This document shows, piece after piece, positions 7,601 through 54,156 of a stretch of 64,000 bases of DNA. Where the stretch lies: positions 1-64,000 of the forward strand of contig PS015187.1 in assembly GCA_048213135.1 (NCBI GenBank), in the 5' to 3' direction. The position numbers and the translations under genes are program-made. Source of the DNA: Reclinomonas americana ATCC 50394. Lineage: Eukaryota. The notes under the pieces are model-generated. The model searched no databases. It was not told where the DNA came from and was given only the letters and a program-made list of their open reading frames with translations. The stretch's first letter is position 1, and every line of letters starts with the position of its first letter.

Positions 7601-9100
7601 GCTGCTCGTCCCACGACACACCCACATCGCGCGACAGCACCTCGGATGCATGCACCAGCACCAGCTCACCCAGAAACGCTTCACGGACAATGGCCGTCGG
7701 CGCACTCTCCAGCATCTGGCAACGAGAACGAGGAGCGATGTCAGCTGATGATTATAGCAACGGCAACCACTGTCACTCTTGCACCTCGGCTAACTGCGTC
7801 GCGTGCACGATATCCATGGTTTGCACGTGGTCAGCAGAGTCAGCATCCGGAAATGCATCGGCAACAAGACGAGCGAGTTGCGGGCCAGAGACTGGTGGGA
7901 TGCTGCCTCTGTAAACACAGAATGAGAGACTTCTCAAGGTGTTGGTTGCTCTGCCGGTGGACGCTCTGTCTTTCGCTGGACGCTCTGTCTTTCGCTGGAC
8001 GCTCTGTCTTTCGCTGGACGCTCTGTCTTTCGCTGGACGCTCTGTCTTTCGCTGGACGCTCTGTCTTTCGCTGGACGCTCTGTCTTTTGCTGGACGCTCT
8101 GTCTTTTGCTGGACGCTCTGTCTGTCGCTGGACGCTCTGTCTGTCGCTGGACGCTCTGTCGGTCGCTGGACGCTCTGTCGCTGGACGCTCTGTCGCTGGA
8201 CGCTCTGTCTGTCGCTGGACGCTCTGTCGGTCGCTGGACGCTCTGTCGCTGGACGCNNNNNNNNNNNNNNNNNNNNNNNNNNNNNNNNNNNNNNNNNNNN
8301 NNNNNNNNNNNNNNNNNNNNNNNNNNNNNNNNNNNNNNNNNNNNNNNNNNNNNNNNNNNNNNNNNNNNNNNNNNNNNNNNNNNNNNNNNNNNNNNNNNNN
8401 NNNNNNNNNNNNNNNNNNNNNNNNNNNNNNNNNNNNNNNNNNNNNNNNNNNNNNNNNNNNNNNNNNNNNNNNNNNNNNNNNNNNNNNNNNNNNNNNNNNN
8501 NNNNNNNNNNNNNNNNNNNNNNNNNNNNNNNNNNNNNNNNNNNNNNNNNNNNNNNNNNNNNNNNNNNNNNNNNNNNNNNNNNNNNNNNNNNNNNNNNNNN
8601 NNNNNNNNNNNNNNNNNNNNNNNNNNNNNNNNNNNNNNNNNNNNNNNNNNNNNNNNNNNNNNNNNNNNNNNNNNNNNNNNNNNNNNNNNNNNNNNNNNNN
8701 NNNNNNNNNNNNNNNNNNNNNNNNNNNNNNNNNNNNNNNNNNNNNNNNNNNNNNNNNNNNNNNNNNNNNNNNNNNNNNNNNNNNNNNNNNNNNNNNNNNN
8801 NNNNNNNNNNNNNNNNNNNNNNNNNNNNNNNNNNNNNNNNNNNNNNNNNNNNNNNNNNNNNNNNNNNNNNNNNNNNNNNNNNNNNNNNNNNNNNNNNNNN
8901 NNNCCCTCCTTCTCTCCCTCCTTCCCTCTCTCTCTCTTCTCCACTCTCCTTCCCTCTCCCCTTCCCCCTCCTATCCACTCACTTCCTCCTCGCCTCCTCC
9001 GCTCGACTCCCACTCGGCGACAAGTGCGTCGCAATCAGATACAACAGAAAGCCGGAAGCCGCAGTCGCCCCGCCCAACAAGCCCAGATCGATCAACTGTG
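4635..9100 (-). CDS. Multi-exon, probably alpha-helical (ARM/HEAT-like) protein of unknown function; start not located
   Basis: More than 10 GC-rich minus-strand exons with GT-AG boundaries, e.g. HVPIDVLFRIISQNMPDDVF..., VGALFTALLHGSKALVTLCL..., ending ...MTAILEALLDAPPA* at 4635. Leucine-rich amphipathic helices; no recognisable catalytic motif. Confidence 0.55.
7957..8256. repeat. 19-bp minisatellite (GCTGGACGCTCTGTCTTTC)n with 15-bp variants, running into an N-gap
   Basis: Direct head-to-tail repetition with no unique spacers. Confidence 0.95.
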
Positions 9101-9635: not shown

Positions 9636-12600
9636 ATGGCCGCATCAGACCCGCGCCTCTCCGCTATCCAACGCGAGGCCGAGCTCGCCGTCGACCGCGG
9701 CGACGACGCAACCAGCGAAAATCGCTTCGCCACGCTCGTCCGCGAGTGCGCGCGTGTGCTGGGTTCCGAACATCCGGACACACTCTTCTCCACCGTCAAG
9801 CACGCCGATGCGCTGCACGACCTGCGCGACTACTCGCGCATGTTGCACGTGCTGGAGAAGGTCATCCCGACACTCAACCGCGTGTGTGGCATGGATCACG
9901 AGTGGTCGATTGGCGCCGTGGCGCTGCTCAGTGAGGCGCTGATTGGTCTCGGACGTGTCGACGAGGGCGTCCGACATGCGCGCGATGCACTTGATTACGC
10001 GGTGGGGTACATTGTAGATGCCGATCATTGGGTGATTGGTTATGCGAGACAGGCGCTGGCCAGTGCCTTGTCGGCCTCGTCGGGAAATCGCAAGTTGATT
10101 GAGGAGGCGGTGGAGTTTGGGCGTGAGGCGCTGGAGTCTCGTCGGCGCAGTCACGGGGACGATCATCGAGCGACGCTCAATGTGGCGCACTTGTTTGGGT
10201 TGGTGTTGATGCGGTGGGGCAGTGTGGAGAGTGTGCGCGAGGCCGTGGAGTTGCTGGAGGGAACGGTGGAGCGGAGGAGGCGCGTGTTGGGTGCGGCGCA
10301 TGCGCATGCGCGGGAGACGGAGCAGTTGTTGGCCAATGCGCGGGGTCAGTTGGCGTCGTTGGCCATGGAGGAGTTGCAGCCACGGGAGGTGGTGATGGAG
10401 AGGGGGGAGCAAGGTGGGAAGGGAGGAAAGGGAGGAAAGGGAGGAAGGGAGGGAGAGAGGGAGAGATGGAGAGAGGGAAGGGAGTGGAAGGGAGTGGAAG
10501 GGAGTGGAAGGGAGTGGAAGGGAGGGGAAAGGAGGGAAGGGAGGGAGACAGGGGGAGGGAAGGAGAGGGAAGGGAGAGGAGGAGGAAGGAGAAGAAGAGG
10601 TGATGGACTGAAGGAGAGAGGGAGTGGCGAGGAAGGAGGGGGAAGGGGGACTGAGAGTGAAAGAGGGAGAGAGAAAGAGGGAGCGGAGGCAGCTTGGGTG
10701 GAGAGGAGATTAACAGAGACAAAAGGGGGGAGCAGAACGTGAATGAGACGGGCTGAGACTATTGGACGGAGAGGGAGGGAGAGGGAGAGAAAGGGAGCGA
10801 AGCAGCCTGACTGGAGAGGAGCTTAATAGAGACAGAGGGGGAGCAGAATGTGAATGATGACGGGCTGAGGGAGGGAGAGGGAGAGGGCGCACAGGCAGCT
10901 TGAGTGGAGATGAAAAACAGAGACTGTTGGCCAGGGCTGAGGGAGGATTGGATGAAGAGGGAGAGAGGAAAAGAGGAGAGGAAGGAAAGAGAGGAAGTCA
11001 GACAATGGAGAGAGAGGGAGACATAATGAGAAGGTGTTGTGCGAAAGAGGAGAGGAGCATAAGGAACACCCCCGTCCCCTCTCTCTCTGCTGTGTTGTTT
11101 TCTTCTCAAGTCTGCCTGTCTCCCTCACCTCCTCTCGCTTTTCTCATTCTCTGTACCTCATCACCTCCTTGCTTCTTCCTGCCTTCAATCCTCTTCATTC
11201 TTTTTTCCTGCCTCCCATTTTCATTCTCCCCCCTCTTTCCCCTTCCTGGCTCACCCCGTTTCTCACGCACCCAGCTGTCCGTCCCATTGCCAGCTCTCCG
11301 GTCAACGCCGTTTCTCCTCTGAACGCTGTCTCTCCAGTCCGCCCCATCTCGCCTGCCATTCCCAGCCCATCCGGATCCGCCAACACCCTGTCGCCCACAA
11401 GCGCTGTCTCTCCAGTCCATGCTGTCTCGCCCTCCGTGGCTGCCCTCCAAGCGCGCCCCATCTCGCCTATCAATGCGTTGCCTGTGCACTCCCGATCGCC
11501 CTCCGCCCCTTCTTCTTTTCAAGTGCGCCCCATCTCGCCTGCCAACTCCCTTTCGGCCTCCGACATGGCGCCTCTCGTGCGCCCCATCTCGCCGTCCCTG
11601 GCGCGCGAGATTGCCGCGGTTGATCGCGAAGCGGCACCACCGCTGGCACAGCCTCCGGTGCGTAATCGACCGCTTCCGCCACTGCCACCTGCTGTGCAGC
11701 CAGCGCCACCTGTGCAACCGGCGGCCAACGCAGAATCGGACGCATTGTTGCAGGTTCACTTCTCCTCTCCCGCGACGTCCTCCATTCACTCACTTGCGTA
11801 CACGTGCTGCAGGCGTACGCGCAAGATGCCGCAGAACAAGCGCGCCTCCGAGCTGCGACAGTCGCAGGTTACTTGCTGTACCCCCGCGCGTCTCTTTCGT
11901 CATTCTGCTCATTCGTGCCAGATCTGGAAGCGACTCGCCGCGAACTGGCAGCGGCCATGGACAGCCGCCGCAGGGTGAAGGAGCGGCTGCAGCAGCAGCT
12001 GGACGAGGCCATGTGCGAAGTACAGCGGTTGCAGGTCGCACTGGAGCACATGGACCGACATCGCGAGAGTGCCGTGGAGCGTGCCAAGACCGCCGAGCGC
12101 GATCTGGCGGCCCTGCTACAAAATGCCGCTGTGTATGGTTCTCTCTCTCTCTTCTATCGCTCACGCTCTCTCCTCATGAGCAGCTGACCATGCGCGCCAC
12201 GCAGAACCACCGATTGCATTCTCGTGGGAGCAGATGGTGTCCATGTCGGGCGGTTTTCGGGAGCCAGTCGGCGAGGGTGGGTCGGCCAGAGTATTCCTTG
12301 GCTTCTGGAACGGGCGGCGTGTCGTGGTGAAGCGATTCGACTCGACGGCCCCGTGGGCTGTGGCGTCGTACGACAGAGAGGTTTTGTTCGCCGAGGGTTG
12401 TACATGTTTCCCTGCGTTTTGTGTGCCCAGCTCATCAAATAGATAACAGGTGGAAATGTTCAAACGCCTCCTCCTTCCCGGTCTGCCTCGCATGTACGGC
12501 TACGCGCAATCCGATGCCGGAGAACGATGCATTGTGATGGAGGCCATGAGGTGTGCGGTCTTCTCCTATTTTTCCCTCAAAGGTCGAGCCCTCATTTTCT

Positions 12601-13745
12601 TGCAGTGAGCACAATCTGGAGCACCGCCTCTTGCACTATCGCGAGCGCGGACTTCCGGTGATGACCATTGAGGAGCGTATGGCGTGCTTCCAGCGGTGCT
12701 GCGAGATCGTCGCCTCTATTCAGAAGTTTCGTCACCGCTGTCATAGAGAGTGACGAGTGCGTGTGCACGTGCAGTGTGTCTTACTTGCTTTTCTATGTCT
12801 TTTGCAGGCTGGTGTGTATGCGCTGCTGTACGATGTTCCTATGTCGTCGTTATTGCTCACCATACCATCCGTGTGACATGTTCACAGGGTGGTAAGTCGA
12901 CGCGCCTTACTGCAAGTGCACTGATTTTCGCGATCCCCTCACCCCGTTCACAGTGATCCACCGCGACATCAAGCCAGACAATATTCTCTTCGACCAAGCC
13001 AACGTGGCGTGCGTGGCGGATCTGGGTATTGCCCACGGGTACTCCTCCGACAAGGTGACACTGTCGCACAGCATCCTTTTCTCGGTTCTCGTCACTCACT
13101 CCACTCGCATGCAGACGCACGTTGTCACGCAGTGGGCGGGCGACTTGCGTTACGCCGATCCACGGTCGCTGCATGATGAACTGACGCCAACCGTCGACGT
13201 CTTCGCGCTGGGCCTGGTGCTGGCACAGTTGTACATGGGCGTGGACACGGAGCACGTCCACGCGATCTTGCGGTCCGTCCGACGCCTGAGCGACGAGGAG
13301 CTCGCTCGCACGTGCGTGCAACATGCCGACACCGGTGTAGGGCGTCCTTGGCCGGCACCTCTGTGTGAGGGCATGGTCAGACTGGTGTTGCGGTGAGTGA
13401 TCCCCCGCAGCTCGTGAATTCCCTTGATCTTCTCAAAAAAGAAACGGCAGCTGCACGAGCATCACCGACGAGGGCCTTCGTCAGCGACCGACTGCGGCGG
13501 AGCTGGTGGTCGCCGCCCGCGACTTGGCCGTCATGTCGACCCGCCGTGCGTGTCTCGTGTGCAACGCGCTGCGCAATACGTGCCTGTATCCGTGTCGGCA
13601 TCAGGTGCTGTGCGCCGAGTGTGCGACGACGCTGGCTGAGCGTGGCTCCGAGTGTCCGATGTGCCGCGAGAGGTTTACGCGCTTTGAGAGCGATGATGCG
13701 CGGTTTGGGTATTGCACGTTTGTCGAGGAAGTGAAAGACAAGTGA
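9636..13745 (+). CDS. TPR repeats - Pro/Ser-rich linker - coiled coil - IRAK/Pelle(RLK)-like Ser/Thr kinase - C3HC4 RING protein
   Basis: Exon 1 has kinesin-light-chain-type TPRs (RVLGSEHPDTL, RRSHGDDHRATL, RRVLGAAHAH). A phase-1 donor at 10414 joins the phase-1 acceptor at 11274. Kinase motifs: FSWEQMVSMSGGFREPVGEGGSARVF, VVVKR, HRDIKPDN, DLG, GDLRYADP, DVFALG. RING: CLVC...PCRHQVLCAEC...CPMCR. Stop TGA at 13745. Confidence 0.8.
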
Positions 13746-13871: not shown

Positions 13872-16800
13872 TCATTCCTTGGCCGGTCGTGCGGCTGGTG
13901 GTGCGGCCGCCGACACCACGGGCAATGGACGCGGCGGCGGAGGAGCGGCTTCGTTCAAAAAGAGTTGATGCAACTCCGCGAGGTGGGCCTCGTTCTCCGG
14001 GCCGCACACCCTGGCGAGGCCGAGAACGAGCTCGCCGAGGCATTCGCTGTGCGCCACCACGTCGGCGAAGCCGGCGTGTGGTCGCATGAGCAGCCACTGG
14101 AGGGTGACCAGGCCGGAGACGCCATCGCGGCGGCCGACTTCGGAGTAGGACCAGAAGGAGCAGAGGGCGAGTGGGGGGCCCTGTGAGGGGGGAAGGATGA
14201 TGAGGGAAGGGGGAAGGGGAAGGGGAAGGGGGAAGAGGGGAAGGGGGAGGGGAGGCAAGAGGAGAAGGGAGAGGGAGAGGGAGAGGGAGAGGGAGAGGGA
14301 GAGGGAGAGGGAGAGGGAGAGGGAGAGGGAGAGGGAGAGGGAGAGGGAGAGGGAGAGGGAGAGGGAGAGGGAGAGGGAGGAGGGAGAGGGAGGAGGGAGA
14401 GGAGGAGGNNNNNNNNNNNNNNNNNNNNNNNNNNNNNNNNNNNNNNNNNNNNNNNNNNNNNNNNNNNNNNNNNNNNNNNNNNNNNNNNNNNNNNNNNNNN
14501 NNNNNNNNNNNNNNNNNNNNNNNNNNNNNNNNNNNNNNNNNNNNNNNNNNNNNNNNNNNNNNNNNNNNNNNNNNNNNNNNNNNNNNNNNNNNNNNNNNNN
14601 NNNNNNNNNNNNNNNNNNNNNNNNNNNNNNNNNNNNNNNNNNNNNNNNNNNNNNNNNNNNNNNNNNNNNNNNNNNNNNNNNNNNNNNNNNNNNNNNNNNN
14701 NNNNNNNNNNNNNNNNNNNNNNNNNNNNNNNNNNNNNNNNNNNNNNNNNNNNNNNNNNNNNNNNNNNNNNNNNNNNNNNNNNNNNNNNNNNNNNNNNNNN
14801 NNNNNNNNNNNNNNNNNNNNNNNNNNNNNNNNNNNNNNNNNNNNNNNNNNNNNNNNNNNNNNNNNNNNNNNNNNNNNNNNNNNNNNNNNNNNNNNNNNNN
14901 NNNNNNNNNNNNNNNNNNNNNNNNNNNNNNNNNNNNNNNNNNNNNNNNNNNNNNNNNNNNNNNNNNNNNNNNNNNNNNNNNNNNNNNNNNNNNNNNNNNN
15001 NNNNNNNNNNNNNNNNNNNNNNNNNNNNNNNNNNNNNNNNNNNNNNNNNNNNNNNNNNNNNNNNNNNNNNNNNNNNNNNNNNNNNNNNNNNNNNNNNNNN
15101 NNNNNNNNNNNNNNNNNNNNNNNNNNNNNNNNNNNNNNNNNNNNNNNNNNNNNNNNNNNNNNNNNAGAGGAGAGGAGACGGGAGAGGAGAGGAGAGGAGA
15201 GGAAGAGGAGAGGAGAGGAAGAGGAGAGGAGGAAAGAGAAAAAACAGATGAAATAAGGAAAGAACAGGGAGATAAGAGAAGATGTGAACAGACGAAATAG
15301 GAAGAGGAGATATGAGAAGTGGTGAGATGACAATAGAAGTGAACAAGAAGCAGAGAGGAGAATGGTGGGAAGGAGAGAAAGAGAAGAGATGTGAACAGAG
15401 GAGCAGCGAATGATGAAAAGAGAAAAAACAAAAGAGAATGAGATGACAAGGAGAGGGAAGAAGAGAAGGGACGACAACAGAAGAGAGGAGCAGTGAAGAG
15501 ATGAGAGGAGAAGAGAAGAGAAGAGGGGAAGCAACAGTGTCATCCCCTTTCCATCCAACAACGCACCGCCGAGCTGGCCGGTGCCTGCGTGTCCAACGCC
15601 ACGCGGAAGAGGCAGCTGTTGGGACTCAGCGCCACGTAGTCGCTCCCGTGCACAAACAGCATCTGCTTGCCGAGCTCGCCGAATTTGATCGCGGCCGGCG
15701 TGTCTTCCGGTGACAGACCGTGGCACGCACGTGGGGCGGCGCCAGCTGTGCTTCCGCTCGCCGCACTACTGCCGCTTCCGCTGCCCGATGCGCCGGCCTT
15801 TGGTCGCTTCAGTCCACCAAGCAGGCCTCCTATACTCTGGTCAAAAAACAAGGCGTGCTCATCGGTGCGCACAGCTGTCGCCTCACCGGCTTTCGGAGGC
15901 TTCGGTTGTTGCACCAGTGCCTCCACGGTGCCTGCGATCTGGGGCATGCAGGTGGGGAAGATACCGCAGCGCACCTCGAAACGCGTGCCGGGACCCTCGT
16001 CGACGAATGGGAAGGAGAGCTCGCGAAAGACCCAGCCGTGTTGCACAAAATTGAAGGTTTGGGTCATCAGGCGCGGACTGTCATCACATGCGGGTGAGGC
16101 AGAGCAGGGCAAAGAGAGAAAAACAAAAGAGTGAGGTATACCCTTCTGTCCTCCGGAAAAACTGCGACACGTCGGACACGGCCCAGGCGAATTCGATCGA
16201 CCCGGCGGCTGCGTCGCGCTTCGACAGCAGGTCGCGGATGACGGGTGGGAGAGTCAGAGGGTGCAGGCCGAGGCGGCCGAGAACCAGCACGCACAGCTCT
16301 CCTTTTGGGTATTCAGGGCCGTATTGGCCAATGTAGGGGACACTGGGGAGAGGGAGAGGGTGAGGAGAGTGGGGGAACAGAGAGAATCAGAGTGCATAGA
16401 CCTGAACATGCCCATGATGGGGTGCATGATTTCGTCCACGGTTCTGCCGTCCTCTAGGTGCAGAAAGAAGCGACGAGGGTCGTTTTGTTCCTTGCGTTTT
16501 TCCACGCAGACCTGCGTGGAGGATGGAGAGGAAAGAGGGAGTGAGGAAGGGGGAGTGAGGAAGGGGGAGGGGGAGGGGGAGTGAGGAAGGGGGAGAGGGG
16601 AAGGGAGGGGAAGGGAAGAGAAAGGGACAAGAGTATGGAGCGGATCAGGGGCAGTAGAAAGGGTGAAGAACAGTGGAAAGGATAAAAGTATCTTGAACAG
16701 GGTCAAGGTTCTGGAACGGAACGAGGGTTGTGAAAAGTGTCAAGAGTCGTGAAATGGTCAAGGGTGGCGGAGAGGATCAAGCGTCGTGGAAAGAGAGGGC

Positions 16801-18276
16801 CAAGAGTAAGGGAAACGGCCTTGGAACTGGAACGGGTCATGGGTGGTGGAAAGAGTTGAGGGTCGTCGAAAGGAATGAGCTGTTCCCACTTCTGACCCTC
16901 AACCATTGCACCTCGCCCTTTCCACGACCCAAGAGTGAAACTATCAGGCTACTGATTAGAAAAGCAGGGAGTGAATATGGAAGGGAAAGAGTTGTGAGTG
17001 ACACCGAAGCTGGTGAGAGAAGGAGCGGCGGATTAATAATTGAGGGTCGGAAAAACAAAAGCAAAGAGAGGGAGGCTCGTTGCGAGTGACAGCGAAGCTG
17101 ACGAGAGAAGGAGCGGCGAGTCAATGGTTGGGGGTCGGAAAAGCACAGCGGAGACACACCAAGGAAAGAGAAGGAGACTCGTTGTGAGTGACAGCGAAGA
17201 TGACGAGAGAAGGAGTGGAAACTCAATGGCACAGGGTAAGAAAACAAAAGCAAAGAGGATGAAACTCGTTGTGAGTGACAGCAAAGATGACGAGAGAAAG
17301 AGCGGCGGGTCAATGGTTGAGGGTCGGAAATCCAAGAGCAAAGAGAGGGAGACCGTTGTGAGTGGCAGTGAAGCGGAACGGACGCTCAACGGTTGAGGGC
17401 CAGAAAAGTACAACAGAGACACACCTAGGAAAGAGAAGGAAACACGTTGTGAGTGACAGTAAGACGACGAGAGAAAGAGTGCAGGATCAGTGACTGCGGA
17501 TAAGAAAGTACAACAGTGAACACTATGAGGCTGTGCATCACAAGGGAATGCAGAGGAAAACTCATTGTGAGTGACAGCAAAGAGGAGGAGAGCCATCGTG
17601 CTACATGGCAACGAGTCAATCAACACAAGAGCACGTTGAGACTGACCTGTTGACCTCCCACTCGCCCGTCCACCATGTCCAGTTGTGCGACATCAGCTGC
17701 CAACAGATCCACGGCATGGGCATGATCGCCGACGGGAGCCATGGAGGGTGGCGAGGGAGGTGGAGTGTGGACTTCGTCGCGGAGGGCGGAGAAGGTGAAG
17801 TAGGTGTTGAGGGCGGCCTGTGGCGGAGGGGCATGAGAAGTGGGAGAAAAGAAAAGGCGAGTGGGACGTGAGGAGATATGAATAGTGAAGGGTGAGCGAT
17901 AGGGATGGAGAAGAGTGTGAGCAATGGACGGTGAGAGAGATGGAGAGAAGAGAGGAAGATGTGACGCCTTATCGCTTGCCTAACTCACAGTATCTCTCTC
18001 ACTCACTCACTCCTCACTCTCTCACTCACTCACTCACTCACACACACATACACACTCACACACACACTCACTCACTCACTCACTCACTCACTCCACACAC
18101 ACACACTCTCTCTCTCTCTCTCTCACACTCACTCACTCTTCTCTCCTCTTCTCCCCCTCCCTCTCCTTATTGCTCACCTGCACATCCCAATCATGCGACC
18201 TCAGCATCTCCCTTGCTGCATCCTCATCCCGTGTTCCGCTCAGCACACAAAACTGCGAAACCTTCACTGCATCCAT
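13872..18276 (-). CDS. Protein with an N-terminal UBA-like (UBA_4-type) domain and an uncharacterised C-terminal domain
   Basis: Exons 1+2 splice to MDAVKVSQFCVLSGTRDEDAAREMLRSHDWDVQ|AALNTYF, matching the QF..hTG....A...L....WDhQ.Ah..YF UBA-like pattern of DCN1/p47/TDP2. Further exons at about 16400-16510, 16140-16335, 15568-16075 and 13872-14180. Confidence 0.7.
16990..17590. repeat. Degenerate ~88-100 bp tandem repeat (about 7 units, core GTTGTGAGTGACAGCGAAGATGACGAGAGAAGGAG) in an intron
   Basis: The core recurs near 16991, 17079, 17180, 17268, 17355, 17446 and 17565. Confidence 0.8.
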
Positions 18277-18335
18277 GACGATAAAGTGACTTACAATGTC
18301 CTGTGAGCGTCTTGAAACGTTTAGTTGTTCATTGC

Positions 18336-21300
18336 ATGAGGTGTGTTGCATGTTGCTCTCTCTCTCTCTCTGTGCGCGCGCGTGTGTGTGTGATGTTAAT
18401 TGCTTGTTGCCAGTCAACCAGAGAGGAAGAAGGCATGGGAGATGGGGAGGGATGGTGATGTGCAAGCGTTGCGCGAGTTGGTGGCTTGTGAGGGAGCAGA
18501 GATTCTGCTGAAGAGTGAGGAGACGAGTGGATTGCAGTCGGCATACTACTTTGCTGCTTTCAGTGGCCACATGCCTGTGCTGGAGTATTTGTGGGAGGAG
18601 AGTGGCGTCGGACCTCAACTTGCACAGATTGTCGGGGATGGCGGCTGTACGCCACTGCAAACAGCTGCTTGCAATGGACATCTGCCAGTGGTGGAATGGT
18701 TGCTTGCCGATGAGCGACGATGCCCGCCCGAGATTGCGCGTGTTGTCAACATCCACAAGTCCACTGCACTGCATTTGGCTGCCTTGAACGGCCGCGAAAT
18801 GATTGTGCGACTCCTCGCCACTCGCTATCCCGACCTTATTCCCATGGTCAACGATTTCGGCAAGACAGCGGCTCAGTGGGCTGGCGGGCATACCCCAGTA
18901 GGCGAGATATTCGATCGCCTTGCTCTATCGTTACCAGGTGTTTATCGTCATCGTCATGTGTTTTTTGCTGCCGTTGTTCATCTCTTCCTCCTCAGCTGAA
19001 ACTCGTGCTCCTCGTCAATTGAGGAAGAGGGCATTTGAGATGGCGCAAGGAGGCGACATGGAGGCGCTGCGCGAATTGGTGGCAATGGAGGGCTCGCAAG
19101 TGCTGCTGAAGAACGAGGAGATGGATGCCAATGGCAGCTCGGCATTCTATTTTGCCGCACGCAGTGGCCATCTCTCAGTGTTGGAGTATTTGTGGACGGA
19201 GAGTGGAGTTGGACCGCAACTCGCACAACAGGTATCCGTGTATGGTGTGACGCCACTGATGATAGCTGGCAGCTGTGGAAATCTGCAAGTGGTCGAGTGG
19301 TTGCTGGCTGACGAGCGTCGATGTTCGCTGGAAATGGTGCGGACGGTCGACAAGAACCAGTGGACTGTTCTGCATTATGCCGCTCGGAATTCCCGTGAAG
19401 CCATCGTGCAACTCCTCGCCACTCGCTATCCCGACATCATACCTGCAGTCAACAAGCATGGCAAGACAGCGGCACAGCTTGCACGCGACAACAAGAAACA
19501 GCGAGTGGCCGCGATGATTGATCGTCTGGCTGCGCAGTCGTTGCACCAACCACCAGCACAACCTGAACCATCACCACCGTCATCATCACCACCAGCACCA
19601 CCAACACAGCAGCAACAACAACTGCAACCACGACAAGATCCACCGCCGCGACCACCTGCAGGTGTGATCTCATTCGTCTTGAGCAGAAAGTTGATTCATC
19701 ACACACCTCAATCCGTGTTACTATTGCTTTTCGCCACTGTAGAGCACGCAGTGCCAGCTATTCGACAGGTGCGAGAATGTGTCATCGTTGGCGCGCGCGA
19801 CATTTGTGTGACTTCAACCCTCCCTTGTTTTTCCTAGCAGTCGGAAGATGATGCCTTCGTTGTGTATCGCCAGCTCGCCGACAAGGACGCACTCAACGTT
19901 CAACTCCAGCTCGACCTTGCCGCAGCACAGCAGGAGCGAGAGCATCAGCAGCTAATGTGGGGCCATGAGCGACGAGAGTGTGAAGCCATGGTGGCTCAAC
20001 TGCAACGGGCCATCATTGAGTGTCAACAAGGCAAAGCGGAAGAACAACTGAAGACTTACCAACTACAGCTAGCAAATGCAGAGTTGCTTCGAGGGAACTC
20101 CGAATTGCAGCGAGATCATGCTGAACTTCAGCACCAGGTTGCCCAACTGCAGCGGGATTCCTCGGAGTTGCAACAAGGCAGGGCTGAGGAACAGCAGATG
20201 ATAATTCAACTGCAGTCTCAGCTCTCTGCGTCCCTTCGCGGCAAGGATGTTCTCACCACGCAGTTGGCCACTATTCAGCAGCAACTTGAAGAGAGAGACC
20301 TTCTTGTTTCGCAGCTTCGGCAGGAACTTCTCCTCGCTCAAGGTCTTTACGTCTCTGTTGTTGCTTGCGTGCACATCAGTAGTTGACTCTCTTTTCACCG
20401 CTTATTCGGTAGTCAACACTTGCGTGCAGCGCTTTGAGTGGACCGAGATCGTGCACGCCACAGACTCGTTCTCTCCTCGTCTTAAGGTCGGCGAAGGTGG
20501 CCAGGGTGCTGTCTTCATTACTCTGCTTCGTGAGATGCATGTGGCCATCAAGGTACTCGACCCCGATGCACCGTGGACGATGGAGTCATTTGAGAGCGAG
20601 GTCTGTATCACTCCCTCTCCTGTTTCCTCTCTTTTTCTCCCCCTCCTTCTCCTCATTCCGTCTTACAGGTCGCCACCCTCGGACGCCTTCGTGATCGTCG
20701 CATTGTGCCTCTTGTCGGATACTCGGTGGGTGACGACAAGGCTCGCTGTCTGGTGTACAAGGCACTGCAGTGCGTTACTTATCTCCCTCTTCTTCTCCCT
20801 CTCATCCATCACCTCCTTACTGTGAAGGCACACAGAATTCCCAATCTGGAAGATATGTTGTTGCTTCGCACTGGCCGTGCACCACTCTCCGTCGTGCAGC
20901 GTGTGCAGATTGGTCTCGGACTGGCCGAGGCTGTGACATTTTTGCACAAGGTTAGATTTCTACATGGTTCGGCGGATTTTGTTCTCATGCACGTCCTCAC
21001 CACCTCTCTCACAGAACGAGGTGGTCCATCGCGACATCAAACCCTCGAACGTGCTTCTCGATCACCGTTTCGAGCCGTGTCTCGGTGACTTTGGCATCGC
21101 ACGGTCGATAGCTGATGGCAAGGTTTGCTTCTCTCCTGTCACATCTGCTTTCTCTCTGTGACGACTTCTCACTTCGACCCTGTGCAAGTCAACCGTCGCC
21201 GCCGGCACACTCGACTACTTGGATCCACTGGCCCTCCGCGCTCGGCGTCCGCTGCCCAAGCACGATGTCTTCAGTATGGGTGTGGTGCTGGTGCAGCTAG

Positions 21301-21554
21301 TCACCGGCAAGCCGGTGATGACGGTGGGCGAGTGGTCGCTGGAGTGGGACGACTCGCCTGCCTCATTGCGCGTCATGGAGCTGGTGGACAGCAGCGAAGG
21401 AGTGGAGTGGACTCCGCGTATCGCTGAAGCCATGTTCACCGTAGGCATACGATGCATGAGTCTGCGACGTGATCGGCCGACAGCGCAGGAGGTACTCGAC
21501 GTGATGCGGGCGTTGCGGGAGGCGTGCGGACAGTTTACGATGGTCATTGATTGA
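18336..21554 (+). CDS. Ankyrin module x2 - Pro/Gln linker - coiled coil - IRAK/Pelle(RLK)-like kinase
   Basis: Two homologous ankyrin blocks (GCTPLQTAACNGH...STALHLAALNGR; GVTPLMIAGSCGN...TVLHYAARNSR) and a Q/E/L-rich heptad region. Kinase: FEWTEIVHATDSFSPRLKVGEGGQGAVF, VAIK, HRDIKPSN, DFGIAR, GTLDYLDP, DVFSMG, RRDRPT. Start is 18336 (ATGAG|GTGTGT) or 18296. Confidence 0.85.
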
Positions 21555-22055
21555 ACTGGGAGGCAGAGACAGTGCGATTCAGTCTGCAAAAATCTTGCAC
21601 TGCCTGCACATCGAGCACCTCCTGTGCCATCTATTGACCGCGTTACAGACTTATGCAACGTCAAGCATGGCATCAGCGATACGTGAAACTGTCGTCGACC
21701 ATATATATATATGCGTGACGCACTTGATTTAAAGTTGGTTAGAAAGAAAGCACTCACAAACAAAACACTTCATTCACCACATTCCAATAATGCGACAAAC
21801 GACCACATGTACAAATCCCTTGCCGACAATCACCTTGGCACACCAACAATATAGAAACGCATAATTACATTCTCCTCAATGATTGCGATCGCGAAGTCGA
21901 CCTGTCTTCCCTTGCATTAGTTTTAATTCTCCCTCCTCTTTCTTCCCGATCAGCTGACGGATGCAACCAAGTATCTTCTATTCCGTCCTTCGCTCTCCCC
22001 GTCCTGTCCGTCTTGATCTTCTCCGGATCTCTCCGCCCCTTCCCCCTTCTCCTCC

Positions 22056-24502: not shown

Positions 24503-27500
24503 ATGGGCGCCACTCAAAGCACCACTCACCCCCTGTCCTCCCGCCCTCACCGCTCCCACTCCACACACAACGACCCTCGCCTGCACACTCCACACTCCTC
24601 CACATGGACCACACGCTCGCGAAGTCACACAACATCAGTGCCAAAGAGGAAGGAAAAGAAGGACAAGCCACACGATGCAGAGGACGCCGCGTTGCTGGTG
24701 TTGTTAGTCGGCGAAGTTCCGTTGTTTGAGGCACTGGAGGAGCCGACGTTGCGTAAGAGAGAGAGAGAATGCAATCAATGTGATGATTGCGTGTTCGATA
24801 TTTTCTTCTTATGATTTTTTGTTGTTTTTTTTTTGTTTGAAAAGGCGACCGGCGCCGGCTTCTGTGCCTGTGTGTGGTGGATGCGGCAAGTCGTTTGCTG
24901 TGTTTGTGCGAGGACGAGTTGCGGTCGATGTTTCTTCTTTCATTTCTCAGTTGATCTTCTTTTCTTGTACCTTTTGCCTCTGTCGTTGCTCTTCTCTCTC
25001 CCTCTGCGCCCACTGTTCCCTCCTTTCCCTCTCTTCATTGTCTTCTGTCTTCTTCTCCTCTCTCCTCCTCGCTCTCAATCTCTCCGCGCTCTCGCTCGCT
25101 GGCGTTCTTTCCCTCCTTGAACTTCCCTCCCCCTTCTCATTCCACTTCTTCTCTCTCTCTCAATCTCTGTGTGCTGTCTTCTGCATCTCTTCCTTCCTTC
25201 GCGCTTGTCTTCCCCCTTCTCTTTCCTCTTGTCTTCCACCTCTCCTCTTCGCGCCCACTCTCTCTTCCTCACTCTCATTCTCTCTTCCTCACTCTCTGTC
25301 TCTCTTCCTCGGTCTCGATCCTCCTCGCTCTTTCTGTCTCCTCTCTTCCTCCCTCCCTTAAGCTTCTCTTCTCCCCTTCTCCTTCTCTCCCCCTTTGCTC
25401 TTCCCCTTCTCTTCCCCTTCTCTTCCCCCTTCTCTCCCCCTTCTCTTCCCCCTGTCTCCCCCTTCCGTCTTCCCCCCTTCGTCTTTCCCCCTTCGTCTTC
25501 CCCCTTCCGTCTTCCCCCTTCCGTCTTCCCCCTTCCGTCTTCCCCCTTCCGTCTTCCCCTTCTCTTTCCCCANNNNNNNNNNNNNNNNNNNNNNNNNNNN
25601 NNNNNNNNNNNNNNNNNNNNNNNNNNNNNNNNNNNNNNNNNNNNNNNNNNNNNNNNNNNNNNNNNNNNNNNNNNNNNNNNNNNNNNNNNNNNNNNNNNNN
25701 NNNNNNNNNNNNNNNNNNNNNNNNNNNNNNNNNNNNNNNNNNNNNNNNNNNNNNNNNNNNNNNNNNNNNNNNNNNNNNNNNNNNNNNNNNNNNNNNNNNN
25801 NNNNNNNNNNNNNNNNNNNNNNNNNNNNNNNNNNNNNNNNNNNNNNNNNNNNNNNNNNNNNNNNNNNNNNNNNNNNNNNNNNNNNNNNNNNNNNNNNNNN
25901 NNNNNNNNNNNNNNNNNNNNNNNNNNNNNNNNNNNNNNNNNNNNNNNNNNNNNNNNNNNNNNNNNNNNNNNNNNNNNNNNNNNNNNNNNNNNNNNNNNNN
26001 NNNNNNNNNNNNNNNNNNNNNNNNNNNNNNNNNNNNNNNNNNNNNNNNNNNNNNNNNNNNNNNNNNNNNNNNNNNNNNNNNNNNNNNNNNNNNNNNNNNN
26101 NNNNNNNNNNNNNNNNNNNNNNNNNNNNNNNNNNNNNNNNNNNNNNNNNNNNNNNNNNNNNNNNNNNNNNNNNNNNNNNNNNNNNNNNNNNNNNNNNNNN
26201 NNNNNNNNNNNNNNNNNNNNNNNNNNNNNNNNNNNNNNNNNNNNNNNNNNNNNNNNNNNNNNNNNNNNNNNNNNNNNNNNNNNNNNNNNNNNNNNNNNNN
26301 NNNNNNNNNNNNNNNNNNNNNNNNNNNNNNNNNNNNNNNNNNNNNNNNNNNNNNNNNNNNNNNNNNNNNNNNNNNNNNNNNNNNNNNNNNNNNNNNNNNN
26401 NNNNNNNNNNNNNNNNNNNNNNNNNNNNNNNNNNNNNNNNNNNNNNNCCCCTTCTCCTCTCCCCCTTCTCTTTCCCCTTCTCCTTCCCCCTCTCACCTTC
26501 CCCCTCCCCCTGCAGCGCCACTGCAAACGCTGCGGCAACCCGGTCTGCTCCGACTGCTCCCGCCAACGACGCGTCATTTTCCGCATGCTCTCCGTCTACC
26601 GCGACGTGCCACAACGATTATGCGAGTCGTGCGGTGCGCACCTCTCTCTCCCCCTTCTCCAATCACTCTCCATTCCTTGACTGTTGGATCGTTGTAGCCG
26701 CCCTGTGCAAGCGCGACAACGAGTTCATCCAGTCGATGCACAGCGATCAGTACGGCATTCGCCTGCGAGTGGCGCTCTTTGATCACATTCTCCCCGCGCT
26801 TCATCGGCGACTGGAGCAGCTGGTGCCAGCGTTCCTGTCGGTCGTGCGGAGCGAGGGTTTCGAAGTGGCGGGTTTTTGCGGGAACGGCGGGTGGAGGTGG
26901 GTCTTCTATCAAGAGACTTCCCCTCTCCTTTCACTTTCACTTCCTCACTTGCCCCTTTCCCCCCAATCAAGGTACCGGCTGCCCACCTCCTCCTCCCGCC
27001 ACGAAATCTCCGTCCTCCCACGCTCCGCCAGATCTCTGGACCGTCGCACCGCTACCGCCCTCCACAATCTCTTCCACCCCGACCACCCGCGCGCCTCCGG
27101 CTGCGACATTTCTCTGGCGCGCAATCTCCTTCGTTTCGCGTGTTATTGGCTGCCGTCGCGCATTCAGGCGGCGGGTGCGCGCCCACCGGATGTGTTTGAG
27201 GTGGATGTGCAGGGGTCGGACGCGGTGGTGATGCTGGAGCGGAGTGCGGATGTCGTTGTGTGCTGGGAGAGGGGAGGGAGGGAGGGAGCGATAAAGAAAG
27301 AAAGGAGCAGAACGTGAGAGAAGAGCTCTTCTCTCATTCCTTCCTTCGCCGCAGCGCCGCGCGGTCGAGGAAATCTACGTGCTGCGCAACGAGACCGCCG
27401 GCCACACCCACGAATTCAGCATGACATACCAGGGCTTTCGACGGGTGATGGATGGACTGCTGCTGGCCGCCACTCTTTTCGACGAGGCGTGTGTCGTGGG

Positions 27501-30500: not shown

Positions 30501-33500
30501 AACCGGTGACGTCGGTCGGCGACGAACTGCAGCACGAGGAGGAGGAGGAGGAGGACGTCGATGCAGTACCCTCTTCGCAAGCCTCGCAGCAGGAGTTAAG
30601 TGGCGCCATGCGGAAAGCGGATCACTACATTGCAACCTCACTCATTCTCCATGATCGCAGGAGGCACGCCTTGTCTGTTCAGTTGCAGCGCGCCATGGGC
30701 ACCGTGGTCCTCGGTGTGGTGCGGCAGTTGCTCGAATTCTGCTGGCCGCGGTTCATTGCGGTGGTCGGTGTGGAGGAGCCTCCGTTCCGCATTGACAAGC
30801 TGTGGGCCGACAAGAGTGATCCGCAGTTCTTTAGGTGCGTTCTTACTCGCACAGGGGTTTGCATGAGGGTTCACATGGTCTATCTCTCTCCCTCGCTGTT
30901 ACGCTGCTTGTCTCGCTCGCCGTATCGCTCCCTGACTCTCTCCCTGTCGCACCCCCTCTCTCGCGTTCTGTCTCGTTCCCGGTCTCGCTGCCTGTCTCGC
31001 TTCCTGCCTCACTTCCTGTCTCGTTCCCTGTCTCGCTCCCTGTCTCGCTCCCTGTCTCGCTCCCTGTCTCGCTCTCTGTTTCGCTCCCCGTCTCGCTCTC
31101 GTTTCGCTCCCCGTCTCGCTCCCTTTCTCACTCTCCGTTTCGTTGCTTGTGTCGCTCCCTGTCTCACTCCTCGTTTCGATCCCTTTCTCGTTCCCCGTTC
31201 TGTCCTTGTCTCGCTGCCCGTTCTGTTCCTTGTCTCGCTCCCTGTCTCGTTCTCAGTCTCGTTTTCTGCTCACTTTCTGTCTCGCTCCCTGTCCTGCTCC
31301 CTGTCTCGTTTTCTTCTCACCTCTTGTCTCGCTCCTTGTCTCGCTCTCTGTCTCGCTCCTCGCCTCGATCCCTTTCTCGCTCCCTATCTCGCTCCCTGTC
31401 TCGTTTTCTCTGTTATGGTGTCTCTCTCGCTTGTTTCATTGTTCTCGTCAACACACCCGCTGTCTTTATATTCTTGACTCCCGCCCTTCCTACACTCCCC
31501 TTCCCGCCCCCTTTCCCACTCCTTCCCCCTCACCCTCCCCCTTCGCCTCCCTCCCCGCTCCCCCCCCCCCCCCCCCCCAACGGTACGAATGCGACCACGG
31601 CCGCGCTCGCATCGACTCCTACTTTCAGCGAGAACACGTGAGCAAGTTTGCGCACACTGGCGTCGCCGCGGAATTGGACCTCAGCACCATGTGCACTCTC
31701 CTCACGCGCCTCTGCTATCGACTGCCGAGTCAAGACGCACTGTCGCGACAGCGTAGCCTCGTGCACAACATGCTGGGGGCGTCGACCGTGCACAGTGCGG
31801 CACTGCTGGTGCGCGGCTCGGTCGACCGCAATCGCAACTGGGACGTTGCCGCCGACCACGATGACGCATCGCTGGCGTTGCTGTTGCCACGACCCGCGGT
31901 GGTGAGTGGCTTCGAGATCTGTCTCTTTGACGGCTTGTCGTTGACCTCTTTTTTTGCGCAGCGCGAGGCCGTGGACACCATTCGACTCGTTCGAAACGAG
32001 TCGCAGCACTTTCTCACGCAGTCCGGTGTCGACAAGACGGTGTTTGAGGCGTTGAGCGCCCGCTTGGAGACGCAAGTGCGAGTCATTCACGAGTACCTTG
32101 GTGGTGTGGCGAGTTGCAATTGGGTGGATGAGCTGCGCGAGGCCATGTCGGTGGTGGCAGGTGGGGTGGAAGGGAAAGGGAAGAGGGAGGTCGTGAGGGG
32201 AGAGGGGAGAGGGGAGAGTTGAGAAATGGGAGAGATTCACTCATTTCGCTTGCCCGTTAGCTTGCTGCATTCTTTTCACTTAGTGAGAGCTTTCTTAACG
32301 TCGCCATGTCACAACAGAGGCAGGGAATGTGGTGCGAGTGAAGAGAAGCCGCGAAGAGAATGCAGCGCATAAAGTACGACGACGAGAGAGAGGGAAAGAG
32401 GGGCCATGGAAGTTACATGAGAGAGGCGACGAGTACGTGAGAACGAAAGGCGAAACTTGACCTGATGAAGAGGCATGATCAAGATGCTAACTTTCCCCTC
32501 CCTTTTTCCCCTCCCTCCCTCACTCCCCCTTCGCCCCTCCCCCAGTGGGCCTGCGCAACGTCCGCTCCCTCACTGAACGCCTCCACTCTGCCTGCCGACT
32601 GCAAGCCGCCATGATGGACGAAGACGCGCAACTCTGCAAGCTCCTGTCCTCCTTTGTCAACCTCGACTGCACACCCACGGCTGGCGACTCTGAGCGGCGA
32701 CTGGACCTGCTCTCTGAGGTTTTGTACAAGATCGAGAAATCCCTTTCTCTCCTCTTTGTCAAATCCCCTCACCTGTTTGTGCAGATGAAAGCCTTCGTTT
32801 CACACCCATCCGCCCGCGTGCTGCTGGTGATGGGCGAGAGCGGCGCCGGCAAGTCGCTCAGTTTGACCGTGTTTGCGCGCCAGCTGCTGACAACGGGCAA
32901 TCCGCTCGGACATCGCTTCGTGCTGCGAGTCACACTGTCGTCGTTGCGCAACGCCCGCGAGACGCTGCTGTTGGAGACGCTGCAGCATGTCGACGAGTCA
33001 TTCACAGCGGCCGATGTGGAGGCCATGCACAACATTCCGCTGTTGCTGCTGCTCGACGGTTACGACGAGCTGTATTCGCGTGTCAACTTGTATGAGAGCA
33101 ACCAGGTGAGATGGGAGAAGGGGAATAGAGCAGAGAGACGACCGTTATTACAGAGCGCTGTGTCACTTTCTTCTGTGGCAGCACATTCTCTCGTCTCGTG
33201 CTGATGAAGTTGGCACGAAAGGCACAACTGTCTGCACCGTTTGCTCACTTCACTTCTGCCTCTCTCCTCTTCCTTCTTCACCTTCTTCCTTTTTAATGCG
33301 GTTGCTCACACTCCACCTTCTCCCTCTCTTCTCTTCGCCTTCTCCGCCTTCTCCCTCCTTCTCCGCCTTCTCCGCCTTCTCCGCCTTCTCCGCCTTCTCC
33401 GCCTTCTCCGCCTTCTCCGCCTTCTCCGCCTTCTCCGCCTTCTCCGCCTTCTCCGCCTTCTCCGCCTTCTCCGCCTTCTCCGCCTTCTCCGCCTTCTCCG

Positions 33501-40809: not shown

Positions 40810-41802
40810 NNNNNNNNNNNNNNNNNNNNNNNNNNNNNNNNNNNNNNNNNNNNNNNNNNNNNNNNNNNNNNNNNNNNNNNNNNNNNNNNNNNNNNNNNNN
40901 NNNNNNNNNNNNNNNNNNNNNNNNNNNNNNNNNNNNNNNNNNNNNNNNNNNNNNNNNNNNNNNNNNNNNNNNNNNNNNNNNNNNNNNNNNNNNNNNNNNN
41001 NNNNNNNNNNNNNNNNNNNNNNNNNNNNNNNNNNNNNNNNNNNNNNNNNNNNNNNNNNNNNNNNNNNNNNNNNNNNNNNNNNNNNNNNNNNNNNNNNNNN
41101 NNNNNNNNNNNNNNNNNNNNNNNNNNNNNNNNNNNNNNNNNNNNNNNNNNNNNNNNNNNNNNNNNNNNNNNNNNNNNNNNNNNNNNNNNNNNNNNNNNNN
41201 NNNNNNNNNNNNNNNNNNNNNNNNNNNNNNNNNNNNNNNNNNNNNNNNNNNNNNNNNNNNNNNNNNNNNNNNNNNNNNNNNNNNNNNNNNNNNNNNNNNN
41301 NNNNNNNNNNNNNNNNNNNNNNNNNNNNNNNNNNNNNNNNNNNNNNNNNNNNNNNNNNNNNNNNNNNNNNNNNNNNNNNNNNNNNNNNNNNNNNNNNNNN
41401 NNNNNNNNNNNNNNNNNNNNNNNNNNNNNNNNNNNNNNNNNNNNNNNNNNNNNNNNNNNNNNNNNNNNNNNNNNNNNNNNNNNNNNNNNNNNNNNNNNNN
41501 NNNNNNNNNNNNNNNNNNNNNNNNNNNNNNNNNNNNNNNNNNNNNNNNNNNNNNNNNNNNNNNNNNNNNNNNNNNNNNNNNNNNNNNNNNNNNNNNNNNN
41601 NNNNNNNNNNNNNNNNNNNNNNNNNNNNNNNNNNNNNNNNNNNNNNNNNNNNNNNNNNNNNNNNNNNNNNNNNNNNNNNNNNNNNNNNNNNNNNNNNNNN
41701 NNNNNNNNNNNNNNNNNNNNNNNNNNNNNNNNNNNNNNNNNNNNNNNNNNNNNNNNNNNNNNNNNNNNNNNNNNNNNNNNNNNNNNNNNNNNNNNNNNNN
41801 NN

Positions 41803-54100: not shown

Positions 54101-54156
54101 TGGCGGCTTCGCAGCGGAAGACGTGCGCTCAGTTGCTCGAGGGTGATATGCTATAG
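51129..54156 (+). pseudogene. Second nuclease-kinase copy with frameshifts
   Basis: Relative to copy 1: net +8 nt in the exon at about 51480-51540, and a 4-nt GCGC insertion near 54060 in the last kinase exon. Otherwise collinear. Confidence 0.65.

What the first reader, a model, noticed from the sequence alone, without database searches (positions are those of the whole stretch)
12720..12960. Two consecutive 4-nt microexons complete the kinase just before the catalytic loop
Seen: direct splicing of ...CAG AA|GTTTCG to CACAG|TG ATC CAC is out of frame. Between them lie TTTGCAG|GCTG|GTGTGT (12808-12811) and TTCACAG|GGTG|GTAAGT (12888-12891). Including both gives AAG CTG GGT GTG ATC CAC CGC GAC = KLGVIHRD, the expected subdomain VI context, with three ordinary-sized introns (about 60-80 nt). 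Skipping either one frameshifts the kinase and RING, so this could act as an on/off switch. Gene predictors would miss it.
Basis: partly seen in the sequence, partly recalled or inferred. Interest (0 to 1): 0.7.

Follow-up and report, generated by a model that had tools for sequence, protein, structure and literature searches.

The report
Two four-base exons in kinase gene
A kinase-plus-RING gene of an unidentified short-intron eukaryote most likely needs two back-to-back 4-base exons to stay in frame just before its catalytic loop, which is a neat annotation trap of a kind already known, and no RNA data were available to confirm it.

Summary
GCTG (12808-12811) and GGTG (12888-12891) each lie between an AG acceptor and a GT donor. 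Splicing 12725 directly to 12954 breaks the frame.

With both 4-nt exons, an 11-exon model gives an uninterrupted 512-aa protein: coiled coil, protein kinase, C-terminal RING. The three introns here are 82, 76 and 62 nt; the 17 introns I curated in the window are 54-71 nt.

Support for the two-microexon route:
- It ranks first of 293 in-frame, stop-free GT-AG routes.
- It uses the three best acceptors and the best donor in the region.
- It reproduces the 5-residue spacing before HRD seen in a paralogue 8 kb away and in 3 of 18 kinase-RING relatives.
- In shuffled controls, a route through good sites that inserts exactly 8 nt appears in about 1%, and two 4-nt exons in 0 of 9000.

These have poor donors and unseen spacing, but they are not excluded.

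No RNA run, whole genome or orthologue was available, so the model remains a prediction (about 0.68). The "on/off switch" idea is untested. Ultra-short and adjacent microexons are already documented, so this is a new member of a known kind.

The parts
11565..13745 (+). Coding region of the coiled-coil + protein kinase + RING gene: 11 exons in the preferred model, 512 aa. The start codon is provisional; an open frame with VRPISP-like repeats continues upstream.
   Evidence: model and translation; Pfam by exon; alignment with kinase-RING relatives
12606..12725 (+). Exon 6 of the model (kinase helix before the catalytic loop, ...CCEIVASIQ + AA). It ends in phase 2 at donor GAA|GTTTCG.
   Evidence: Donor score 2.9 bits, inside the leave-one-out range of true donors, 1.4-10.5
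12726..12807 (+). Intron of 82 nt, with CTTAC branch-like motif, pyrimidine tract and TTTTGCAG acceptor. It lies within 1 nt of the paralogue's intron after LHK.
   Evidence: Acceptor 11.2 bits, the best of 10 AGs in 12740-12960. Paralogue intron 20951-21014
12808..12811 (+). Microexon 1, GCTG. It completes the Lys codon and gives Leu.
   Evidence: The donor after it, CTG|GTGTGT, scores 8.1 bits, the best donor in 12700-12960
12812..12887 (+). Intron of 76 nt, with CTCAC branch-like motif and GTTCACAG acceptor.
   Evidence: Acceptor 4.1 bits, third best in the region
12888..12891 (+). Microexon 2, GGTG. It gives Gly and the first base of Val.
   Evidence: The donor after it, GTG|GTAAGT, scores 4.2 bits
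12892..12953 (+). Intron of 62 nt, with CTCAC branch-like motif 13 nt before the GTTCACAG acceptor.
   Evidence: Acceptor 9.7 bits, second best in the region
12954..13054 (+). Exon with the catalytic loop and the DLG (DFG-like) motif: (V)IHRDIKPDNILF...VADLGIA...
   Evidence: Pkinase PF00069, E 8.3e-07, profile positions 120-151 of 263
13451..13745 (+). Last exon: end of the kinase domain and the C3HC4 RING finger, up to the stop codon.
   Evidence: zf-C3HC4_3, 43.2 bits against a cut-off of 27, E 3.4e-11
12750..12755 (+). Alternative in-frame donor AGA|GTGACG, 24 nt downstream of the preferred one. Used with both microexons it gives KFRHRCHRELGVIHRD.
   Evidence: Second-ranked route; donor score -2.3 bits

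Best explanation
The gene encodes a coiled-coil + RLK/Pelle-like protein kinase + C-terminal RING protein. Between the exon ending at 12725 and the catalytic-loop exon starting at 12954, the mRNA most likely keeps two constitutive 4-nt exons, GCTG and GGTG, separated by three short introns (82, 76, 62 nt). Together they supply the 8 nt that keep the frame and encode K-L-G-V before IHRD. The inferred mechanism is this. In a genome whose introns are all about 55-70 nt, each short intron is recognised as a unit (intron definition) through its own donor, branch-like CTCAC/CTTAC motif and CAG acceptor. The tiny exons therefore need no recognition of their own, and the three introns can be removed one after another. 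Shown here: the sequence, the frame arithmetic, the site scores and the spacing match. Inferred: that the spliceosome uses these sites, and that inclusion is constitutive.
For: (1) Frame: only with both pieces does the 11-exon model read through as 512 aa. The direct join is out of frame.
(2) Site quality, scored with matrices from 17 hand-curated introns of the window (7 from this gene, 5 from the paralogue, 5 from a duplicated gene). The three acceptors used (11.2, 4.1, 9.7 bits) are the three best of 10 AGs in 12740-12960. Donor 12812 (8.1) is the best donor in 12700-12960. Donors 12726 (2.9) and 12892 (4.2) fall inside the leave-one-out range of true donors, 1.4-10.5.
(3) Ranking: first of 293 GT-AG, in-frame, stop-free routes with 0-2 internal exons. 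It is also the only route whose weakest site exceeds 2 bits.
(4) Intron length: the 17 curated introns are 54-71 nt. The model needs 82, 76 and 62 nt.
(5) Each of the three introns has its own branch-like motif (CTTAC, CTCAC, CTCAC) with no AG between it and the acceptor, like the known introns.
(6) Protein spacing: the result SIQ-KLGVI-HRD has 5 residues before HRD. The same spacing is found in the paralogue at 19850-21555 (FLH-KNEVV-HRD), whose only intron here lies within 1 nt of the first intron. It is also found in 3 of the 18 kinase-RING relatives where the motif could be read (P0035, P0012, P0177); 14 have 9-11, one has 6, none has 4 or 7.
(7) Chance: see the shuffles (about 1% for exactly 8 nt; 0 of 9000 for two 4-nt exons).
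(8) Feasibility, from passages I read. 1-nt microexons and two adjacent microexons (5 + 12 nt) were validated by RT-PCR in plants (PMC8831610). Microexons flanked by very short introns are spliced without the extra factor PRP-40, consistent with intron definition (PMC8378409).
Against: There is no transcript evidence, and no orthologue shows that the two pieces and their splice sites are conserved.
The first donor has A at -1 (GAA|GT), seen in only 1 of the 17 curated introns.
Two of the three introns (82 and 76 nt) are longer than any of the 17 curated ones (maximum 71).
The matrices rest on only 17 introns, seven of them from this same gene. The thresholds in the shuffle test were chosen after seeing the data.
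In-frame routes without microexons exist.
The prior frequency of two adjacent 4-nt exons is very low in every genome studied.
Peptide plausibility does not separate KLGVIHRD from KLVLIHRD, because V at that position is common in the family.
Confidence: 0.68

Rival explanations
1. One long intron and no microexon. The exon runs on to an alternative donor at 12731 (TTC|GTCACC, 223-nt intron, product KFLIHRD) or at 12740 (GCT|GTCATA, 214-nt intron, product KFRHRLIHRD). The internal acceptor/donor pairs are chance look-alikes.
For: Both routes are in frame and stop-free with GT-AG ends. They need no rare 4-nt exons. GTC donors occur in 3 of the 17 curated introns. Insertions before HRD are tolerated in this family, where spacing of 9-11 is common.
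Against: Donor scores are -2.9 and -1.0 bits, below every leave-one-out true donor (minimum 1.4). C or T at -1 is seen in 0 of 17 introns. The introns would be three times longer than any of the 17 curated ones. Spacing of 4 or 7 before HRD is seen in 0 of 18 relatives and not in the paralogue. The strong acceptor at 12807 (11.2 bits), 68-82 nt downstream, would have to be ignored. Total scores are -7.4 and -5.6 against 22.0.
Confidence: 0.1
2. A single small exon instead of two. The options are GCTGGTGT (12808-12815, donor TGT|GTATGC, product KLVLIHRD), GGTGGTAA (12888-12895, product KVVMIHRD), or a 41-nt exon 12808-12848 (product KLVCMRCCTMFLCRLIHRD).
For: All three are in frame. The two 8-nt versions give the same 5-residue spacing as the preferred model. 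The KLVLIHRD peptide is compatible with family patterns such as KPVILHRD.
Against: Donors 12816 (-4.8) and 12896 (-2.8) are far weaker than the competing donors 4 nt upstream of each (8.1 and 4.2). These routes need introns of 138, 162 or 105 nt. The 41-nt exon would insert 12 extra, Cys-rich residues into a conserved turn.
Confidence: 0.07
3. No productive mRNA. The locus is a recently disabled gene copy, or the draft assembly carries an error near the junction, and the apparent solution is a coincidence.
For: The window is a draft with 5006 N in seven gaps. Related kinase genes lie in the same window, so redundancy is possible. No expression data were available.
Against: All ten other exon junctions are in frame and the catalytic motifs are intact. 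A 1-nt assembly error that made the direct join in-frame would leave only 2 residues between the helix and HRD, where the paralogue and relatives have at least 5. No N lies within 1.4 kb of the site.
Confidence: 0.1
4. Add-on to the main model: inclusion of the microexons is regulated, so that skipping works as an off-switch for the kinase-RING protein.
For: Skipping either microexon creates a TGA exactly at the new junction. Retaining the first intron stops translation after 9 further codons. Any lapse therefore removes the catalytic loop and the RING.
Against: There is no evidence of alternative use. In short-intron, intron-definition systems, exon skipping is uncommon (general knowledge; PMC8378409 passages). 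The same truncating outcome would follow mis-splicing of almost any exon.
Confidence: 0.06

Closest known systems
Ultra-short coding microexons (1-15 nt) of plants, including the validated pair of adjacent 5-nt and 12-nt microexons in a rice transcript (Yu et al. 2022, PMC8831610; abstract and passages read)
   Same: Internal coding exons of a few bases with canonical AG/GT flanks. They are needed to keep the frame and are usually missed by annotation. Adjacent microexons occur. That paper lists Pkinase among the top domains hit by microexons in Chlamydomonas.
   Different: Here both exons are 4 nt and consecutive, so three introns interrupt 8 coding bases. The organism is an unidentified short-intron eukaryote. 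There is no RNA or conservation support, which the plant cases have.
C. elegans microexons flanked by very short introns, which are independent of PRP-40 (Choudhary et al. 2021, PMC8378409; passages read)
   Same: Tiny exons between introns of about 50-60 nt. The proposed recognition is by intron definition rather than exon definition.
   Different: Those exons are mostly alternative, neuronal and at most 27 nt. Here the exons are presumed constitutive, and the mechanism is only inferred.
3-nt and 6-nt microexons in heterolobosean receptor-kinase genes noted earlier in this scan (e1-636620, e1-682912; AI notes, not checked here)
   Same: Microexons inside the kinase domain, between 40-50-nt introns. 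They were judged to be annotation traps of a known kind.
   Different: They are in other genomes, at another site in the kinase (the APE motif), and are single microexons.
RLK/Pelle-like kinases with a C-terminal C3HC4 RING, mostly unnamed environmental eukaryote proteins (P0009, P0012, P0020, P0035, P0103). Named examples are from Triparma verrucosa and Klebsormidium nitens.
   Same: N-terminal region, then Pkinase, then zf-C3HC4_3.
   Different: They are only distantly related (best RING match 59 bits). Their gene structures could not be seen.

Membership tests
Ultra-short coding microexon (15 nt or less) | Internal segment bounded by a 3' splice site (AG with pyrimidine tract and branch-like motif) and a 5' splice site (GT) | tested here: met
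   Acceptors score 11.2 and 4.1 bits, donors 8.1 and 4.2 bits, within the range of the window's true sites.
Ultra-short coding microexon (15 nt or less) | Inclusion is required for an open, homology-consistent reading frame | tested here: met
   (frame). (5-residue spacing before HRD, as in the paralogue and 3 of 18 relatives). In-frame routes without microexons also exist.
Ultra-short coding microexon (15 nt or less) | Exon-exon junctions observed in RNA | not testable with these tools
   No RNA run was listed. The junction pattern was not found in metagenome or metatranscriptome contigs.
Ultra-short coding microexon (15 nt or less) | Microexon and its splice sites conserved in orthologues | not testable with these tools
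   No genome is held. There is no close protein relative. Only two weak metagenome loci were found.
Protein kinase domain (Pfam PF00069) | Catalytic loop HRDxKxxN and a DFG-type motif | tested here: met
   IHRDIKPDN and ADLG lie in exon 12954-13054. Pkinase E 8.3e-07, profile positions 120-151. Alignment.
Protein kinase domain (Pfam PF00069) | Whole-domain score above Pfam's gathering threshold | tested here: inconclusive
   Only single exons could be submitted. The best scored 29.1 bits against a cut-off of 31.7. The spliced protein aligns over the full domain with five kinase-RING relatives.
C3HC4 RING finger (Pfam PF13920 zf-C3HC4_3) | Score above the gathering threshold, with the Cys/His ligands present | tested here: met
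   43.2 bits against 27. The ligand columns are conserved in the alignment.
Kinase-RING (RLK/Pelle-like kinase + C-terminal RING) architecture | Pkinase followed by zf-C3HC4_3 in one polypeptide | tested here: met
   Model. The same order occurs in 5 of the 21 RING-search hits that I scanned.

The most novel reading that the evidence does not exclude
Three introns packed into 8 coding bases act as a splicing-fidelity gate. Because skipping either 4-nt exon creates a TGA exactly at the junction, the cell could tune the level of this kinase-E3 ligase by regulated unproductive splicing. The cluster may also mark a hotspot of recent intron gain next to an ancestral intron shared with the paralogue.
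Probability: 0.07. Interest if true: 0.55.

Novelty: new member of a known kind. Interest (0 to 1): 0.3.

Why it matters
If the model is right, any automatic annotation of this genome will truncate, frameshift or mis-splice this kinase-RING gene. The case also shows that a spliceosome working by intron definition can tolerate two adjacent 4-nt exons. It is a useful test case for microexon-aware gene finders and for the lower size limit of exons in short-intron eukaryotes. It does not change what is known about splicing, because 1-nt exons and adjacent microexons have already been validated in plants.

Tried and rejected
- RNA evidence: the look-up of sequencing runs listed no RNA holder, so read laying could not be used.
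- Whole genome: none is held.
- Spliced junction in public contigs: a pattern allowing 1-30 nt between the two exon ends found nothing in metagenome contigs.
- Orthologous loci: the search for related loci returned only two weak, partial matches (45% over 33 residues; L001, L002), which I did not use.
- Annotated protein of this gene: none found with exon 13115-13390 as query ('longer'; 421 candidates, none scored).
- Rfam scan of the window: no matches.
- Automated intron discovery by flanking ORFs and codon usage: too noisy, abandoned. I used 17 hand-curated introns instead.
- Origin by duplication or introner-like elements: the introns show no internal similarity beyond the 8-mer GTTCACAG shared at two acceptors, and no copies of them occur elsewhere in the window.
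- Direct join plus assembly error: rejected on kinase spacing.
- A 1-nt second microexon (route KLVIHRD): rejected because the donor scores -1.1 bits and the spacing would be 4.
- An 84-nt exon made by retaining the middle intron after donor 12740: rejected because it inserts about 28 Cys-rich residues before HRD.
- Organism identity: not established. The window holds only fast-evolving families (kinase, ankyrin, WD40, NACHT, TPR, TerD).

Full report
**Observation**

- The exon carrying ...CCEIVASIQ ends ...TTCAGAA|GTTTCG at 12725, with two bases of a codon left over.
- The catalytic-loop exon begins ...GTTCACAG|TGATCCACCGCGAC at 12954 and needs one base before TG.
- Between them lie TTTTGCAG|GCTG|GTGTGT (12808-12811) and GTTCACAG|GGTG|GTAAGT (12888-12891).
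- The direct join is out of frame.

**Gene**

I built a full model on the + strand. The exons are 11565-11753, 11813-11867, 11922-12137, 12205-12380, 12450-12550, 12606-12725, 12808-12811, 12888-12891, 12954-13054, 13115-13392 and 13451-13745.
- The model is 1539 nt and reads as 512 aa plus a stop, with no internal stop.
- The introns are 59, 54, 67, 69, 55, 82, 76, 62, 60 and 58 nt.
- I scanned seven exon translations against Pfam, one exon at a time. The exon at 12954 matches Pkinase (E 8.3e-07, profile positions 120-151). The next exon matches it weakly (E 0.017). The last exon matches zf-C3HC4_3 at 43.2 bits (cut-off 27). Two N-lobe exons gave no match on their own.
- A search of 1.84 billion representative proteins with the RING exon gave 467 hits at E <= 0.001 and none close (best 59 bits).
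- I scanned 21 of those hits. Five (P0009, P0012, P0020, P0035, P0103) have the same Pkinase + RING order and align with the model over the whole kinase and RING.
- A profile of those five recovered many more such proteins. Most are unnamed environmental eukaryote sequences; named ones come from Triparma verrucosa and Klebsormidium nitens, and plant RLK/Pelle kinases follow behind them.
- The organism was not identified. It is a roughly 58% G+C eukaryote with short introns, in a draft assembly with seven N gaps.

I enumerated every route from the upstream exon to the HRD exon with 0-2 internal exons and introns of at least 40 nt. There were 1536 in-frame, stop-free routes if GC donors are allowed, and 293 with GT donors only.

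Some of these need no microexon:
- donor 12731 (TTC|GTCACC, 223-nt intron, KFLIHRD);
- donor 12740 (GCT|GTCATA, 214-nt intron, KFRHRLIHRD).

Others use one small exon: GCTGGTGT (KLVLIHRD), GGTGGTAA (KVVMIHRD), or a 41-nt exon.

**Splice-site evidence**

I curated 17 introns of the window by hand: 7 from this gene, 5 from a paralogue and 5 from a duplicated gene.
- They are 54-71 nt long, mean 64.
- 16 of 17 have G at donor position -1.
- Their donor consensus after GT is weak.
- Most show a CTCAY- or YTNAY-like motif 10-30 nt before a CAG/YAG acceptor.

I scored the region with position matrices built from these introns.

| Site | Sequence or position | Score (bits) |
|---|---|---|
| Acceptor, model | 12807 | 11.2 |
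| Acceptor, model | 12953 | 9.7 |
| Acceptor, model | 12887 | 4.1 |
| Donor, model | 12812 | 8.1 |
| Donor, model | 12892 | 4.2 |
| Donor, model | 12726 | 2.9 |
| Donor, rival | 12740 | -1.0 |
| Donor, rival | 12896 | -2.8 |
| Donor, rival | 12731 | -2.9 |
| Donor, rival | 12816 | -4.8 |

- The three model acceptors are the three best of the 10 AGs in 12740-12960.
- Donor 12812 is the best donor in 12700-12960.
- All three model donors lie within the leave-one-out range of true donors (1.4-10.5). All four rival donors lie below it.
- With a length term added, the two-microexon route ranks first of 293 (22.0). Second (19.9) is the same route with an in-frame alternative donor at 12750. The routes without microexons score -5.6 and -7.4.
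- Each of the three short introns has its own branch-like motif, with no AG before its acceptor.

**Protein evidence**

A paralogous ankyrin + coiled-coil + kinase gene lies at about 18400-21555.
- It shares intron positions with this gene.
- It reads ...TFLHK|64-nt intron|NEVVHRDIKP. That is five residues between the helix-end H and HRD, with its intron within 1 nt of the first of the three introns here.
- The 8-nt solutions give the same five residues (KLGVI).
- Of 27 kinase-RING relatives, the motif could be read in 18. The spacing is 5 in three, 6 in one and 9-11 in fourteen. It is never 4 (the donor-12731 route) and never 7 (the donor-12740 route).
- A direct join repaired by a hypothetical 1-nt assembly error would leave only two residues, so an assembly error is not a good explanation.
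- The peptide itself does not separate KLGVIHRD from KLVLIHRD. That choice rests on the donors (8.1 against -4.8 bits) and on intron length (76 + 62 against 138 nt).

**Chance**

I shuffled the 192-nt interior three ways: mononucleotide, dinucleotide-preserving, and a Markov model trained on the curated introns. Each was run 3000 times.
- Some in-frame route through good internal sites appeared in 297, 420 and 426 shuffles.
- A route inserting exactly 8 nt appeared in 30, 28 and 33.
- Two microexons of 15 nt or less appeared in 4, 3 and 2.
- Two 4-nt exons never appeared.
- In the real sequence the same filter finds exactly one route, the proposed one.
- The thresholds were set after seeing the data, so about 1% is the fair order of magnitude.

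**Consequences of mis-splicing**

- Skipping either microexon puts a TGA at the junction.
- Skipping both shifts the frame.
- Retaining the first intron stops translation after nine further codons.

It is not evidence for a regulated switch.

**Origin**

The three introns are not detectably related to each other beyond a shared GTTCACAG at two acceptors. They have no copies elsewhere in the window. The paralogue suggests that the first intron is ancestral and the other two are additions, but this is an inference only.

**What could not be done**

- No RNA run was listed and no genome is held.
- No annotated protein of this gene was found.
- The spliced junction was not found in metagenome contigs.
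- Only two weak related loci were found.
- Cluster names were unavailable.

The model is therefore a well-supported prediction, not an observation of RNA.

**Comparison with what is known**

Ultra-short coding microexons are established.
- Yu et al. 2022 (PMC8831610; abstract and passages read) report 2,398 microexons of 15 nt or less in ten plants, most of them unannotated. They include 1-nt exons and a validated pair of adjacent 5-nt and 12-nt microexons. Pkinase is among the top domains affected in Chlamydomonas.
- Choudhary et al. 2021 (PMC8378409; passages read) show that microexons flanked by very short introns are included independently of PRP-40, consistent with intron definition.
- Earlier notes of this scan describe 3-nt and 6-nt microexons in heterolobosean kinase genes. 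I did not check them.
- My two literature searches did not turn up a described case of two consecutive 4-nt exons. They were not exhaustive.

**Verdict**

The probability that both microexons are in the main mRNA is about 0.68.
- It is a new member of a known kind.
- Interest is modest: a good annotation test case, with no new mechanism.

Noticed in passing
window 18400-21555 (+): A paralogous gene encodes ankyrin repeats, a coiled coil and an RLK/Pelle-like kinase without a RING. It shares intron positions with the kinase-RING gene and has a single 64-nt intron where the focal gene has three. One of its acceptors is AAG and one is TAG.
   Followed up: partly
window 48400-50260, 52287-54163 and 56501-56977 (+): A tandemly repeated gene (copy 2 is 88% identical to copy 1; a third copy is partial at 83%) encodes a divergent kinase-like domain (…ALHGAGFVHCDVKPSNVM…). 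Each of the two full copies has five 58-71-nt introns.
   Followed up: partly
window 32491-36948 (+): A NACHT-domain ORF is followed by a 1246-codon intron-free ORF with many WD40 repeats. It is preceded by a long (LLR)n-type low-complexity tract.
   Followed up: no
window 14190-14408 and next to other N gaps (1137-1681, 8257-8903, 14409-15165, 25573-26447, 40810-41802, 42898-43298, 60020-60807): Long purine- or pyrimidine-only microsatellites such as (GGGAGA)n border an assembly gap, and composition between genes is strongly strand-skewed.
   Followed up: no
window 12750: An in-frame alternative donor (AGA|GTGACG) lies 24 nt downstream of the preferred donor. It could give an isoform with eight extra residues (FRHRCHRE) before the microexon-encoded LGV.
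   Followed up: partly
window 10956-11565 (+): The frame upstream of the provisional ATG stays open and encodes VRPISP-like Pro/Ser-rich repeats, so the true N-terminus of the kinase-RING protein may lie further upstream.
   Followed up: no
window 58769-59590 (+) and 18136-18924 (-): ORFs with weak TerD and UBA-like Pfam matches. Like the rest of the window, they belong to fast-evolving families that gave no handle on the organism's identity.
   Followed up: no
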